Made by a program: the position numbers and the translations under genes
Assembly (NCBI GenBank): GCA_029856435.1
Contig: JAHQXB010000023.1
Span: 1 to 21,979, forward strand
DNA from: Candidatus Jordarchaeia archaeon
Lineage (GTDB): Archaea; Asgardarchaeota; Jordiarchaeia; Jordiarchaeales; Jordiarchaeaceae
Direction: 5' to 3'
DNA length: 21,979 bases
Shown: in pieces, positions 15,923 to 18,349 of the stretch
Position numbering within the stretch: position 1 is the stretch's first letter
Layout of the letters: each line of letters begins with the position of its first letter
The notes under the pieces: generated by a model
Databases searched by the model: none
Told to the model about the DNA's origin: nothing
The model's input: only the letters and a program-made list of their open reading frames with translations

Positions 15923-16957
15923 GTGAAGAATGTGTGGAGAGGCAAAATTGAAACCATGCCCCGAAAAGAAATTGAAAAACTTCAGGGAGAGAAACTCAAA
16001 AGACAAGTACAACACGTCTACAACAACTCCCCACTACACAAGAAAAAATTCGATGAAAAAGGAATAAAGCCCGGCGATATAAAAACACTAACAGACCTAA
16101 AGAAAATCCCCCCAATAACTCGGGAAGACATGAAAAAAGCCGTAACCCCAGAGGACATTTTTGGAGGCAGACTCTGCGTACCAAGAGACAAACTATGGCT
16201 AATGTTCAACCCCCCAGAAATGATGGTGCAACCACCACTAATACTCACCGCCATAACCCACAACGACAGAGAAGCAATAGTTGAACAGCTAACCAGATTC
16301 ATGGTCATGGCCGGAATGCTGCGAGGAGACATAGTCCAACTCCAAGCCAGCCAATGGGAACTAATAAGCAGACTCCTAGAAAGCGTACACCACGTCCACA
16401 CAAGCGTACAAACCACATTCCCCTTCACCGCAATCCCCGTCGAATGCACCCTATCCCTCTTGGACGTACCCCGAATGACCTACCTAGCCAGCTTCTTCAA
16501 ACCCAGAGTACTAATTACCACCGCAGACGTAGCAAAACTAATGGTCAAAGAAGCAGAAAAAGAGAAAAAAGGCCCCAAAGAAGCATTCAACCCCCAAATA
16601 GTAATACACAGAACAAGACCCGGAAGCCCGATACTAAAACCAGAACTAAGACAAGAATTCAAACAAACCTGGGGAGGAACACACCTAAACATGCTAGACA
16701 TACAAGACAACCACTTCTTCGCTATGGAATGCCCCGAATGCAACGGTCTACACTTATGGGAAGACTACTTCATAGTAGAAACAATGGATCCAAAAACTGG
16801 AGAAATAGACACCCCGGGAACAGGAAACCTAGTAATCACCAACCTAGCCGAAGAAGCCACACCAATAATACGATACGTCACAGACACCAAGGGCAAAATA
16901 GTAAAAGAACCATGCTCCTGCGGAAGAACACACGCCCGAATACTCCTAGAAACCTAA
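15923..16957 (+). CDS. Phenylacetate-CoA ligase (PaaK/F390 synthetase)-like protein lacking the ATP-binding motifs and C-terminal domain (probable pseudoenzyme), 344 aa from GTG 15923
   Basis: PaaK-type N-terminus (IETMPRKEIEKLQ.EKLK....HVY.NSP....KF...GIKP.DIKTL.DL.KIP), MECPECNGLH, GNLVITNL..EATPIIRY, CSCGRT retained; P-loop absent; ORF ends at RILLET*. Confidence 0.85.
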   Translation: MKNVWRGKIETMPRKEIEKLQGEKLKRQVQHVYNNSPLHKKKFDEKGIKPGDIKTLTDLKKIPPITREDMKKAVTPEDIFGGRLCVPRDKLWLMFNPPEMMVQPPLILTAITHNDREAIVEQLTRFMVMAGMLRGDIVQLQASQWELISRLLESVHHVHTSVQTTFPFTAIPVECTLSLLDVPRMTYLASFFKPRVLITTADVAKLMVKEAEKEKKGPKEAFNPQIVIHRTRPGSPILKPELRQEFKQTWGGTHLNMLDIQDNHFFAMECPECNGLHLWEDYFIVETMDPKTGEIDTPGTGNLVITNLAEEATPIIRYVTDTKGKIVKEPCSCGRTHARILLET

Positions 16958-16993
16958 AAAACAAAAATTGAAAATAATTGTGAGGTAATAAAT

Positions 16994-18349
16994 ATGAAAG
17001 CTGAAGAGAGAGGAAAATATTGGAACCCAATAGTTGAAACCATGCCCAGAAAAGAAATTGAAGCACTCCAAACAAAGAGACTCATGCAAGAAGTAAGACA
17101 CGCCTATTATAACACTCCCTACTACAAAAAAAGCTTCACTGAAGCAGGAATCACACCCGAAGACATAAAAACCATACACGACGTAAACAAAATACCCATA
17201 CTCTACAAAGACCAACTAAGAGAATGGCGCGCAAAAACCGGAGACCCATTCGGAGGAGTACTTGCCATAGAACTAAACGAAAAAGTACTAACCATAAACG
17301 CCTCAACCGGAACCACAGGAATACCCAGCATATTCGCCTACACCTGGAACGACAGACAAGTAGCCACAGAACAAGAAACCCGAATGAAATGGATGAGAGG
17401 CTACCGACCAGGCGACCTAGTATACATGACAGGATTCCGATGGCACGGATACGTAGTACAAGCATACTCCGGAGCAGACCAAATAGGAGTACAATGCATC
17501 CTCGACTGCGGATACCCCCTACCCTTCCTAGCCCAAAAACACGTAATAACAATGAAAAACCTAAAACCAGACATCTACGCCGGACCCACACTAACACTAT
17601 ACGCTATAATAGAAGCCACAAAAACAATGAAAGAAGACCCCAACCAAATCTTCAAAACATGCAAATCACTTGAGATTGGGTACGGAGACGTGGTCACACG
17701 GGCGGTTAAGAGACGTATTGAGGCTGAGACTGGTTTTGATCCTGAGAAGATTTTTGATTGGGGTGGTGTTGCCGACCCCTTGTGGTACTATGGTGATTGT
17801 GAGTATCATGTGGGTAACCACTCGTGTGATGATTTGTTCTACACCAATATTTGTGATTTTGAGAGTCACGAGCCGGTGGCGGAGGGTGAGCGTGGAGAAA
17901 TTGTTATTACTAACTTGTTTGCTGAGGCTACGCCGATGTTGAGGTGGGGCAGTGAGGACACGGGTTTTCAGAGTTTGGAGAGGTGTTCTTGTGGTCGAAC
18001 CTATTCTCGGACGACTATTCTGGGCAGGGAGGCTTTCGCTGCGAACATTAAGGGTAAGATGACTTTTCCGTCGGAGATTGAGAACGCGTTGGGTGATATT
18101 CCCGGGTTTACGGAGTACTTCACTGTTCTTAAGTACAAGAAGGGGCCCATGGATACTCTGAAGATTAAGTTGGCTGTGGATGCAACCAAAATCAAGGATC
18201 GGGAAGACTTCGTTAAGCGGGTTAAGGATGCTTTGAGGGAGAAGATGGGTGTAGATTCCGAGGTTGAGATTGTGGAGAAGGTTTCGGATTTGCCCTTCGT
18301 GGGGCACAAGGTTATCAAACTTTTGGATTTAACCAAGGAAGCCAAGTAG
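16994..18349 (+). CDS. Phenylacetate-CoA ligase-family adenylate-forming enzyme, full length
   Basis: ASTGTTG P-loop, DWGGVAD, CEYHVGNH and CSCGRT (Zn-site-like), GEIVITNL.AEATPMLRW.SED, LGR hinge, FPSEIE, C-terminal GHK.IKLLDL. Confidence 0.92.
   Translation: MKAEERGKYWNPIVETMPRKEIEALQTKRLMQEVRHAYYNTPYYKKSFTEAGITPEDIKTIHDVNKIPILYKDQLREWRAKTGDPFGGVLAIELNEKVLTINASTGTTGIPSIFAYTWNDRQVATEQETRMKWMRGYRPGDLVYMTGFRWHGYVVQAYSGADQIGVQCILDCGYPLPFLAQKHVITMKNLKPDIYAGPTLTLYAIIEATKTMKEDPNQIFKTCKSLEIGYGDVVTRAVKRRIEAETGFDPEKIFDWGGVADPLWYYGDCEYHVGNHSCDDLFYTNICDFESHEPVAEGERGEIVITNLFAEATPMLRWGSEDTGFQSLERCSCGRTYSRTTILGREAFAANIKGKMTFPSEIENALGDIPGFTEYFTVLKYKKGPMDTLKIKLAVDATKIKDREDFVKRVKDALREKMGVDSEVEIVEKVSDLPFVGHKVIKLLDLTKEAK

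What the first reader, a model, noticed from the sequence alone, without database searches (positions are those of the whole stretch)
15923..18349. Pseudoenzyme plus enzyme pair of PaaK-like ligases, probable heterodimer
Gene 1 is an uninterrupted 344-aa frame but the P-loop (ASTGTTG in gene 2) is replaced by FNPPEMMVQPP, the YGxxE-type motif by MLDIQD, and the whole C-terminal domain with the GR hinge and catalytic Lys is missing. It keeps the N-terminal segment and the Cys/His metal-site residues (CPECNGLH, CSCGRT). Established: PaaK enzymes dimerise via the N-terminal microdomain. Inference: a non-catalytic subunit (regulatory, ligand-sensing or specificity) for gene 2, which follows after 36 bp. 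Gene 2 is itself atypical (YGDVV, DWGGVAD, RWGSED), suggesting a substrate other than phenylacetate; the family also includes F390 synthetase. I know of no described heteromeric PaaK system.
Basis: partly seen in the sequence, partly recalled or inferred. Interest (0 to 1): 0.75.

Follow-up and report, generated by a model that had tools for sequence, protein, structure and literature searches.

The report
Dead-partner plus active PaaK-type ligase pair
An Asgard archaeon carries a conserved two-gene unit, repeated seven times in its genome, in which an acid-activating (PaaK-type) ligase is always preceded by a shortened copy of itself that has lost its ATP-binding parts. The copy is kept under purifying selection and probably serves as a non-catalytic partner subunit, which has not been described for this enzyme family.

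Summary
Gene 1 (15923-16957, 344 aa) is a PaaK-like N-terminal domain without P-loop, A5 motif, hinge or C-terminal domain. Gene 2 (16994-18349, 451 aa) is a full-length, atypical, P-loop-bearing PaaK-like ligase 36 bp downstream.

This is not recent decay:
- All relatives of gene 1 down to about 32% identity are short and lack the P-loop; there are about 43 clusters at 50% identity.
- Each is directly followed by a long partner wherever the contig allows.
- The short genes have dN/dS of 0.05-0.29.
- Short and long distances mirror each other (Mantel r 0.96).
- The window's genome holds seven such pairs.

The pair occurs in one Asgard order (Jordarchaeia/Freyarchaeia-type MAGs; 6 of 301 Asgard genomes sampled) and in some Bathyarchaeia.

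Folding the two genes as one read-through chain gave pTM 0.82. In that model the short half sits where full-size adenylating enzymes have their first subdomain. Published work describes the PaaK homodimer as compensating for its missing subdomain in this way.

Best reading (about 0.6): a heteromeric ligase with one catalytic and one structural or activating subunit. Physical interaction and substrate are untested. I found no description of this in the literature. Earlier unchecked notes of this scan report dead-copy plus active PaaK pairs in CPR bacteria and another pair in this same genome.

The parts
15506..15922 (.). Divergent AT-rich intergenic region upstream of gene 1. It is the presumed promoter of the two-gene operon, with TATA-like tracts around 15880-15900.
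   Evidence: Sequence read. The upstream neighbour (14660-15505) lies on the opposite strand. The promoter assignment is inference only.
15923..16957 (+). Gene 1: the short PaaK-like protein (344 aa, or 341 aa from GTG 15932). It has the N-terminal domain only, no ATP-binding motifs, and a TAA stop at 16955-16957.
   Evidence: The AF2 model has pLDDT 90.8. VIA gives Z 37.4, rmsd 1.9 over 313 aa to PaaK1 2Y27 residues 7-324.
16205..16237 (+). Residues 95-105 (FNPPEMMVQPP), which occupy the P-loop (A3) position. P98 and E99 are invariant in the 22 close family members.
16691..16708 (+). Residues 257-262 (MLDIQD), which occupy the A5 (YGxTE-type) position. M257 and D259 are invariant in the short family.
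16730..16921 (+). Cys270, His277, Cys331 and Cys333, the conserved Cys3His set that corresponds to the structural zinc site of PaaK-family enzymes.
   Evidence: These residues are invariant. NatL2 binds Zn through Cys248, His254, Cys308 and Cys310 (PMC7204872). Metal binding was not tested here.
16958..16993 (+). 36-bp spacer with GAGGT (16982-16986) 7 nt before the ATG of gene 2. It is in frame with gene 1, but that frame relation is not conserved in orthologues.
16994..18349 (+). Gene 2: the full-length catalytic PaaK-like ligase (451 aa). Its motifs are the P-loop STGTTG (17303-17320), A5 variant WGGVAD (17759-17776), RWGSED (17942-17959), hinge G344-R345 (18023-18028) and A10 Lys439 in GHK (18308-18310).
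   Evidence: In the joint model, residues 366-804 align to 4RVO_B and 2Y27_B with Z about 35.8 over about 417 aa.
18350..18374 (+). T-rich tract directly after the TAG stop of gene 2. It is the likely archaeal transcription terminator, so the operon consists of the two genes only.
   Evidence: The terminator assignment is inference.

Best explanation
Genes 1 and 2 encode the two subunits of a heteromeric PaaK-type, ATP-dependent acid-CoA (or acid-X) ligase.

Gene 2 carries out the chemistry. It keeps the P-loop, the ribose-binding Asp, the hinge Arg, and the C-terminal domain with the catalytic Lys.

Gene 1 is a paralogue that arose once from the same ancestor as the long partners. It lost all nucleotide-binding motifs and the C-terminal domain, but kept the fold, the N-terminal helical microdomain and the structural Zn ligands.

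PaaK-family enzymes lack the first subdomain of ordinary adenylate-forming enzymes. They compensate by dimerising through an intermolecular beta-sheet. Here the dead subunit would supply that half of the dimer to the active subunit. It would therefore act as a structural, stabilising or activating partner, comparable to a 'prozyme'.

The pair was then duplicated as a unit, giving seven pairs in this genome, presumably to act on different organic acids.

Shown here:
- loss of the motifs;
- conservation of the short form;
- purifying selection on it;
- strict adjacency to the long gene;
- co-divergence of short and long genes;
- a confident joint structural model.

Inferred:
- a physical complex;
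- the structural or activating role of gene 1;
- the substrate class.
For: Motif loss and truncation are seen.

The short form is ancient and conserved:
- 22 clusters at 39-91% identity;
- about 43 P-loop-less short clusters among 1.84e9 representatives, all ending 5-19 aa after CxCGRT.

Adjacency is strict. Loci L001-L012 and L081-L114 show short then long with gaps of -43 to 37 bp in every case where the contig continues. By contrast, 68 canonical PaaK loci are single genes or tandem P-loop genes. There are seven pairs in G000 and seven each in G008 and G010.

In the tree, short proteins are one clade (SH-aLRT 100). They group with the long partners (96), and the two subtrees mirror each other. 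Mantel r is 0.963 with 0 of 2000 permutations as high, and the mean divergence is equal (0.577 vs 0.564).

dN/dS is 0.05-0.29 for short genes and 0.02-0.08 for long genes.

Neighbours of the seven pairs differ, so only the pair itself is conserved.

The joint AF2 model has pTM 0.82 with a disordered linker. Full-size ANL enzymes align across both halves of it: FACL13 N-domain 346-361 of 392-398 aa, model range 85/89..701/703. The short protein alone aligns only 235-248 aa to such N-domains. This is the arrangement that PMC4432964 describes for the PaaK homodimer.

The PaaK family consists of functional dimers (PMC8388817, PMC7204872).
Against: - No direct interaction data exist.
- The joint model comes from an artificial read-through fusion with a 13-residue tether and only 17 paired rows. 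No coordinates or PAE could be inspected, so the interface was inferred only from alignment ranges and lengths. No homodimer control could be run.
- Co-divergence and adjacency also fit any two genes that work in one pathway.
- The ex-active-site positions of the short family are themselves strongly conserved (P98, E99, M257, D259, Q261, D262). That may point to a ligand-binding or catalytic role beyond scaffolding.
- One long-type gene of the partner clade (C79) has no short partner, so a partner may not be strictly required.
Confidence: 0.6

Rival explanations
1. Gene 1 is a regulatory or ligand-sensing paralogue rather than an obligate subunit. It would bind the acid substrate or an effector in its remodelled pocket. 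It would then modulate gene 2, for example by forming inactive or differently specific heterodimers in competition with gene 2 homodimers, or act separately in the same pathway.
For: The former active-site positions are invariant in the short family rather than degenerate. The acyl-binding part of the fold is retained. A solo long-type gene exists (C79).
Against: Fixed gene order and very short or overlapping spacers (-43 to 37 bp) in all pairs suggest roughly stoichiometric co-translation rather than a titrating regulator. Evolutionary rate is as low as that of the enzyme. The joint model is confident.
Confidence: 0.2
2. Gene 1 retains a catalytic function that does not need ATP. For example, it could accept the acyl-adenylate or acyl-CoA made by gene 2 and transfer the acyl group, analogous to C-domain-less ANL proteins such as EhpF that are thought to be active.
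For: C-domain-less ANL proteins exist and are structurally similar: EhpF 3HGU gives Z 22.9 over 292 aa (PMC4432964 lists it with the PaaK-type atrophied domains). Polar residues are conserved at the old active site (E99, D259, Q261, D262).
Against: The A3, A5, A7, A8 and A10 elements are all lost or not conserved. Identity to EhpF is only 8-10%. No acceptor-related gene is conserved next to the pairs.
Confidence: 0.12
3. Gene 1 is a decaying duplicate (pseudogene) of gene 2 with no function.
For: Catalytic motifs and the C-terminal domain are lost.
Against: The short frame is intact in every orthologue and paralogue down to about 32% identity. dN/dS is 0.05-0.29. There are about 43 clusters of the same architecture.
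Confidence: 0.02
4. The two genes are made as one polypeptide by stop-codon read-through. They are in frame in the window, separated by TAA plus 12 sense codons.
For: The frames coincide in the window and in 20 of 33 pairs examined. Several C112-type pairs end in TAG.
Against: The frame relation is not conserved within orthologue groups. The 94%-identical orthologue L093 has a 37-bp gap, and others have gaps of 2, 8, 13 or 14 bp or overlaps. Some in-frame spacers hold a second stop. Gene 2 has its own Shine-Dalgarno and ATG.
Confidence: 0.02

Closest known systems
Phenylacetate-CoA ligase PaaK1/PaaK2 of Burkholderia cenocepacia (PDB 2Y27, 2Y4N, 2Y4O) and BT_0428 of Bacteroides thetaiotaomicron (4R1L, 4RVO)
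   Same: They share the PaaK-type fold, including the N-terminal helical microdomain, and lack the first ANL subdomain. Gene 1 alone gives Z 37, rmsd 1.9-2.1 over about 315 aa; gene 2 gives Z about 35.8 over about 417 aa. These enzymes are dimeric, and the dimer beta-sheet compensates for the lost subdomain (PMC4432964).
   Different: The known enzymes are homodimers of two active chains (PMC8388817 Table 1). Here one chain is a truncated paralogue that cannot bind ATP. Both genes score far below the curated PaaK cut-offs (185 and 111 bits vs 646). Gene 2 has variant motifs: GGVAD for YGLSE, GREAF for GRxDD, and HK for GK.
NatL2 / AjiA1 (PaaK-family benzoxazole ligases, PDB 6SIW, 6TM4, 6WUQ)
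   Same: They belong to the PaaK family and have a structural Zn bound by a Cys/His/Cys/Cys pattern identical to that in genes 1 and 2. They are functional dimers in which one subunit contributes to the other's active site (PMC7204872).
   Different: They are homodimers in which both chains are complete and active. Sequence identity is about 20%.
EhpF (PDB 3HGU, 3HGV, 3L2K), a C-terminal-domain-less ANL protein of phenazine modification
   Same: It is a stand-alone ANL N-terminal domain of about 350 aa with the same atrophied architecture (Z about 22.9 over 292 aa; PMC4432964).
   Different: Identity is only 8-10%. From my own knowledge of the literature, not re-read here, it is regarded as an active adenylating enzyme. 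I know of no report that it pairs with a full-length paralogue, and I did not check this here.
Prozyme-type pseudoenzyme partners (e.g. trypanosome AdoMetDC/prozyme, PRMT1 ENZ/PRO)
   Same: A catalytically dead paralogue is retained under selection, and it is proposed to form the functional heteromer with its active paralogue (PMC5201418 and bioRxiv 10.1101/776112, abstracts listed).
   Different: The enzyme families are unrelated. Here activation is only inferred, and the genes form a prokaryotic operon.
DVU_1553 family AMP-dependent CoA ligase (NCBIfam NF045666, profile length 331)
   Same: It is a short PaaK-related family without the C-terminal domain. It gives partial hits to both genes.
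   Different: Scores are 91 and 97 bits against a cut-off of 300, so neither gene is a member. Whether that family keeps a P-loop was not tested.

Membership tests
Phenylacetate-CoA ligase PaaK (TIGR02155 / NF041878 equivalogs) | Whole-protein score at or above the curated cut-off (646.3 / 700 bits) | tested here: not met
   Gene 2 scores 185.2 / 175.6 bits and gene 1 scores 111.3 / 126.8 bits. Both are PaaK-like, but neither is a PaaK equivalog.
PaaK-like subfamily of ANL adenylate-forming enzymes (fold level) | N-terminal domain with a helical microdomain and without the first ANL subdomain | tested here: met
   The gene 1 model gives Z 37.4, rmsd 1.9 over 313 aa to 2Y27_A residues 7-324. 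The gene 2 half gives Z 35.8 over 417 aa to 4RVO_B.
PaaK-like subfamily of ANL adenylate-forming enzymes (catalytic competence) | P-loop (A3) [ST][ST]G[ST][ST]G | tested here: met
   This holds for gene 2 only: STGTTG at residues 104-109. Gene 1 has NPPEMMVQPP instead, so it does not meet this feature.
PaaK-like subfamily of ANL adenylate-forming enzymes (catalytic competence) | C-terminal domain with hinge Arg and A10 catalytic Lys | tested here: met
   This holds for gene 2 only: Pfam PF14535 at 1.9e-11, G344-R345, and K439 in GHK. Gene 1 stops 11 residues after CSCGRT, so it does not meet this feature.
PaaK-like subfamily (structural zinc site) | Cys-x(5-6)-His ... Cys-x-Cys ligands, as in NatL2 | tested here: met
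   C270, H277, C331 and C333 are invariant in the alignment of short, long and canonical proteins. The NatL2 ligands are given in PMC7204872. This was tested at sequence level only; metal binding was not tested.
DVU_1553 family AMP-dependent CoA ligase (NF045666) | Score at or above 300 bits | tested here: not met
   Gene 1 scores 90.8 bits and gene 2 scores 97 bits.
Pseudoenzyme partner ('prozyme') of an active paralogue | Paralogue of the active enzyme with lost catalytic or cofactor-binding residues | tested here: met
Pseudoenzyme partner ('prozyme') of an active paralogue | Maintained by purifying selection | tested here: met
   dN/dS is 0.22 for the window gene against L093 and 0.05-0.29 for the other short genes. 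Divergence equals that of the long partner.
Pseudoenzyme partner ('prozyme') of an active paralogue | Forms a physical complex with the active paralogue | tested here: inconclusive
   The fused-chain AF2 model has pTM 0.82, and alignment ranges are consistent with a PaaK-type dimer. No coordinates, multimer model or experiment are available.
Pseudoenzyme partner ('prozyme') of an active paralogue | Activates or stabilises the active paralogue | not testable with these tools
   This needs biochemistry.

The most novel reading that the evidence does not exclude
These pairs are obligate heteromeric ANL/PaaK-type ligases. The long chain would be inactive or unstable without its dead, N-domain-only paralogue. 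The remodelled, strongly conserved former ATP site of the dead chain would have acquired a new role, such as a second ligand or effector site, or a docking site for the next enzyme or carrier. To my knowledge this would be the first adenylate-forming enzyme built from a catalytic and a pseudo-catalytic subunit. It would have expanded to seven substrate-specific pairs per genome in one Asgard lineage and be shared with Bathyarchaeia.
Probability: 0.4. Interest if true: 0.72.

Novelty: new variant of a known kind. Interest (0 to 1): 0.62.

Why it matters
Adenylate-forming (ANL) ligases are among the best-studied enzyme families. All characterised aryl-CoA ligases in the review read here are monomers or homodimers (PMC8388817). 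A conserved, selected, catalytically dead subunit would be a new quaternary design for the family.

It would also be a natural experiment on why PaaK-type enzymes must dimerise, given that the dimer compensates for a lost subdomain. It bears on annotation too: the short genes are currently labelled 'phenylacetate--CoA ligase family protein' or 'hypothetical', which inflates the predicted aromatic-acid metabolism of Asgard and Bathyarchaeia genomes.

Seven co-duplicated pairs in one 3.5-Mb genome suggest a major, uncharacterised route for organic-acid activation in these sediment archaea. The pairs give a direct handle for expression and substrate screening.

Tried and rejected
Context of the database proteins was therefore obtained through genome contigs and the genome search.
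2. The metagenome-contig scan with gene 1 gave only two canonical PaaK loci at 30% identity and was of no use for dN/dS.
3. An alignment mixing fused rows with unpaired short and long rows (A3) misaligned the long proteins onto the first half and was discarded. Only paired read-through rows (A4) were folded.
4. Read-through fusion as biology was rejected, because the frame relation is not conserved among orthologues.
5. I looked for a conserved third gene. Pfam on the flanks of the six other pairs found different neighbours each time: thiolase plus DUF35, acyl-CoA dehydrogenase plus MaoC, Amidohydro_2, alpha/beta hydrolase, and GNATs.
6. I looked for a conserved small peptide next to the pairs, such as the Cys-tailed peptides that earlier notes report in CPR cassettes. 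No small ORF is shared between the flanks of the seven pairs.
7. Rfam and tRNA scans of the window found nothing.
8. Literature searches for a heteromeric or pseudo-subunit PaaK/ANL ligase, and for Asgard or Bathyarchaeia PaaK truncations, found nothing relevant. Law & Boulanger 2011 (PMC3083198) is not held, so the dimer description rests on secondary sources.
9. Further short P-loop-less representatives (P0144-P0247) were tested against NCBIfam. None reaches the DVU_1553 cut-off.
10. The Atlas hit to bacterial short 'PaaK' clusters without Pfam domains is a lead that I did not follow.
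Full report
**1. What is there**

The window encodes two same-strand ORFs:
- Gene 1 runs from 15923 to 16957. It has a GTG start and 344 aa. The profile of its orthologues starts at GTG 15932, which would give 341 aa.
- Gene 2 runs from 16994 to 18349 and has 451 aa.

The genes are separated by 36 bp holding a GAGGT ribosome-binding site 7 nt before the ATG of gene 2. 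A divergent AT-rich intergenic region precedes them, and a T-rich tract follows directly after the TAG stop of gene 2. The transcription unit is therefore most simply these two genes.

The two proteins are paralogues, 30% identical over 351 aa with E 8e-39.
- Gene 2 matches PaaK models end to end (TIGR02155, 1.4e-54) and matches Pfam AMP-binding_C_2.
- Gene 1 matches the same models only over the N-terminal roughly 310 of 422 positions.
- Both score far below the curated PaaK cut-offs.

**2.

In alignments with canonical PaaKs, gene 2 keeps the catalytic elements:
- the P-loop (STGTTG);
- an acidic residue at the A5 position (WGGVAD in place of YGLSE);
- the ribose-binding Asp (RWGSED);
- the hinge Gly-Arg;
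- the A10 Lys (GHK).

Gene 1 differs at each of these points. It has NPPEMMVQPP at the P-loop position and MLDIQD at A5. The Asp at A7 is not conserved across the short family. The protein ends 11 residues after CSCGRT, so the hinge, the C-terminal domain and the Lys are absent.

Four residues (C270, H277, C331, C333) are invariant in short, long and canonical sequences. The same Cys/His/Cys/Cys pattern binds an essential structural zinc in the PaaK-family enzyme NatL2 (PMC7204872).

The AlphaFold model of gene 1 is confident, with pLDDT 90.8 and pTM 0.90. It superposes on the N-terminal domain of PaaK1 with Z 37.4, rmsd 1.9 over 313 aa, covering 2Y27 residues 7-324.

**3. It is an old, selected architecture, not decay**

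- A search of 5.8 billion proteins found 22 clusters of 313-371 aa at 39-91% identity. All are from Asgard MAGs (Freyrarchaeum, Jordarchaeum, 'Lokiarchaeia' labels). The next hits are ordinary 426-445-aa PaaKs at about 30% identity.
- A profile search of 1.84 billion representatives found about 43 clusters (at 50% identity) of short proteins without a P-loop. Those in which the CxCGRT motif was found all end 5-19 residues after it.
- The short proteins form one clade (SH-aLRT 100). That clade groups with the clade of long partners (96) to the exclusion of canonical PaaKs. The truncation and P-loop loss therefore happened once, in a duplicate of the ancestor of the long partners.
- dN/dS of the window's gene 1 against its 94%-identical orthologue in genome G008 is 0.22, against 0.083 for gene 2.
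- Over six other paralogous pairs, dN/dS is 0.05-0.29 for short genes and 0.02-0.08 for long genes.

**4. The two genes are a unit**

- In every locus where the contig continues, a short gene is directly followed on the same strand by a long P-loop gene, with gaps from -43 to 37 bp. This covers L001-L012 from the species-representative genomes and L081-L114 from the window's class.
- The other 68 loci fetched by the same scan carry canonical PaaK genes, all with an S-S-G-[ST]-T-G P-loop, single or in tandem.
- The window's own genome (3.54 Mb, 181 contigs, 97.8% complete) has seven pairs, on contigs C2, C31, C69, C112, C126, C145 and C174. Two congeneric genomes also have seven each.
- The short and long subtrees mirror each other.
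- Over 25 pairs, the matrices of pairwise distances correlate with r = 0.963, and 0 of 2000 permutations were as high. Mean divergence is the same, 0.577 vs 0.564.
- The pairs were thus duplicated and inherited as units, without partner swapping.
- Genes flanking the seven pairs differ, and many relate to acyl-CoA metabolism:
  - CoA-transferase III, NMO-type reductase, ADP-forming acyl-CoA synthetase and a citrate-synthase-like protein in the window;
  - thiolase plus DUF35;
  - acyl-CoA dehydrogenase plus MaoC;
  - Amidohydro_2;
  - alpha/beta hydrolase.
- No third gene or small peptide is conserved with the pairs.

**5. Distribution**

Among 301 genomes sampled from the phylum, only six carry the short family, and all six are in the window's order. 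That is four of five other genomes of its family plus the window's own genome, and one of five genomes of the sister family. Outside Asgard, the same short-plus-long tandem was found in Hecatellales and Bathyarchaeia MAGs (L009, L011, L012). The distribution is patchy, so transfer between these sediment archaea is likely but was not tested.

**6. How it probably works**

The following comes from papers read here.
- PaaK-type enzymes lack the first subdomain of ordinary adenylate-forming enzymes. Their homodimer builds an intermolecular beta-sheet from the second subdomains. That sheet resembles the missing subdomain and buries the surfaces its loss exposes (PMC4432964, section 7, citing Law & Boulanger 2011).
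- PaaK1/2, HCL and NatL2 are dimers. In NatL2 the dimer is functionally required (PMC8388817, PMC7204872).

A chain that has only the N-terminal domain can still fill this structural role.

To test whether the two window proteins fit together this way, I used the fact that genes 1 and 2 are in the same frame (TAA plus 12 codons). I folded the read-through translation together with 16 equally read-through pairs from other loci as a paired alignment (A4).

- The 808-residue model has pTM 0.82 and mean pLDDT 82.6, with only the linker (residues 344-367) below pLDDT 50. Two independently floating 340-residue domains would not be expected to give such a pTM.
- PaaK-family chains align only to the long half: model residues 362-806, Z about 35.8, about 417 aa, rmsd 3.0. 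The C-terminal domain therefore sits in cis, as in PaaK1-ATP.
- Full-size ANL enzymes align across both halves, starting at residue 85-90 of the short half:
  - FACL13 N-domain, 346-361 of 392-398 residues;
  - MatB, 448 of 503 residues.
- As a control, the short protein alone aligns only 235-248 residues to full-size N-domains.
- So roughly 75-115 residues of the short chain occupy the place of the first ANL subdomain next to the long chain. This is the published PaaK dimer geometry.

There are limits to this test. The tether is artificial, the alignment is shallow, and I could not see coordinates or PAE.

**7. Reading**

Best explanation (0.6): a heteromeric ligase in which gene 2 is the catalytic subunit and gene 1 is a non-catalytic structural or activating subunit.

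Rivals:
- A regulatory or ligand-sensing paralogue (0.2). This is favoured by the strong conservation of the remodelled former active site (P98, E99, M257, D259, Q261, D262) and by one partner-less long gene (C79).
- A new, ATP-independent catalytic role (0.12). EhpF shows that C-domain-less ANL proteins can be functional.
- Pseudogene (0.02) and read-through fusion (0.02). Both are rejected in practice.

The substrate is unknown. The low scores to PaaK equivalogs, the variant motifs of gene 2 and seven diverged pairs argue for a range of organic acids rather than phenylacetate specifically.

One weak extra signal was seen. The N-terminal microdomain is the part most similar between short and long chains (about 0.40 identity against 0.20-0.28 elsewhere). 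Only there is a short chain slightly more similar to its own partner than to other long chains.

**8. Comparison with what is known, and novelty**

- The genes are PaaK-like at fold level but are not PaaK equivalogs. They are also not members of the short DVU_1553 family.
- All aryl-CoA ligases tabulated in the 2021 review are monomers or homodimers (PMC8388817).
- My searches found no report of a heteromeric or pseudo-subunit PaaK/ANL ligase.
- Database names for the short proteins are 'phenylacetate--CoA ligase family protein' or 'hypothetical'.
- Earlier unchecked notes of this scan describe an 'active PaaK-like ligase plus dead copy' in CPR-bacterial cassettes with Cys-tailed peptides (e1-805699, e1-1062023, e1-5214345). 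They also describe another of the seven pairs of this same genome (e1-5716174). The theme therefore recurs in the scan. The peptide partner reported for CPR is not seen here.

I rate this a new variant of a known kind, with interest 0.62.

Noticed in passing
window 18350-20678: The 2.3-kb stretch without long ORFs downstream of gene 2 is a patchwork of short genome-wide repeats. A roughly 182-bp element at 18913-19097 has 20-nt terminal inverted repeats (GCGATAGATTCGCAGGATCT at 18913-18932, with its complement at 19071-19090) and at least 30 copies at 90-97% identity on other contigs. A roughly 190-bp element at 18413-18611 has about 10 copies. A roughly 100-bp element at 19114-19218 has about 4 copies. 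They look like MITEs, and many copies sit at contig ends. No Rfam hit was found.
   Followed up: partly
G000 contigs C52:8408-9712, C119:327-1649, C150:22266-23570 (L088); L001:2725-4077: There is a third kind of degenerate PaaK-like protein. It is full length (434-450 aa) and scores better to PaaK models than gene 2 (278-288 bits). However, it has 'SPG--P', a 4-5-residue deletion, in place of the P-loop, and no A10 Lys. In related genomes the C150-type gene lies divergently next to the C112-type short+long pair (L001, L094, L095, L098).
   Followed up: partly
G000:C31 (L116:6875-7936): The C31 short+long pair is followed, with overlap, by an Amidohydro_2 (PF04909) gene and preceded by two GNAT genes. 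A PaaK-family ligase plus an amidohydrolase is the enzyme pair that makes benzoxazoles (NatL2/NatAM, PMC7204872). This pair may therefore be biosynthetic rather than catabolic.
   Followed up: no
window 15923-18349: Synonymous divergence of gene 1 against its G008 orthologue is half that of gene 2 (dS 0.135 vs 0.289). The C145 short gene shows the same pattern (0.07 vs 0.35). The plus strand at 16-17 kb is extremely A-rich, with AT skew 0.45. This remains unexplained.
   Followed up: no
G000:C79:26204-27637: A long, P-loop-bearing member of the partner clade (477 aa, long branch) has no short gene upstream. Either it lost its partner or it can work without one.
   Followed up: partly
window 14660-15505 (-): A 281-aa ORF matches only the C-terminal part of citrate synthase (profile positions 164-355 of 357). 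It is a truncated citrate-synthase-like protein, possibly of citryl-CoA-lyase type. It sits beside a nitroreductase, an ADP-forming acyl-CoA synthetase-like protein, an NMO-type reductase and a family III CoA-transferase.
   Followed up: no
G000:C2 (L115:10720-14005): Upstream of the C2 short+long pair, on the same strand, lie two thiolase-like genes and two DUF35/ChsH2 OB-fold genes. This is the archaeal thiolase-partner arrangement used in acetoacetyl-CoA or beta-oxidation-type chemistry.
   Followed up: no
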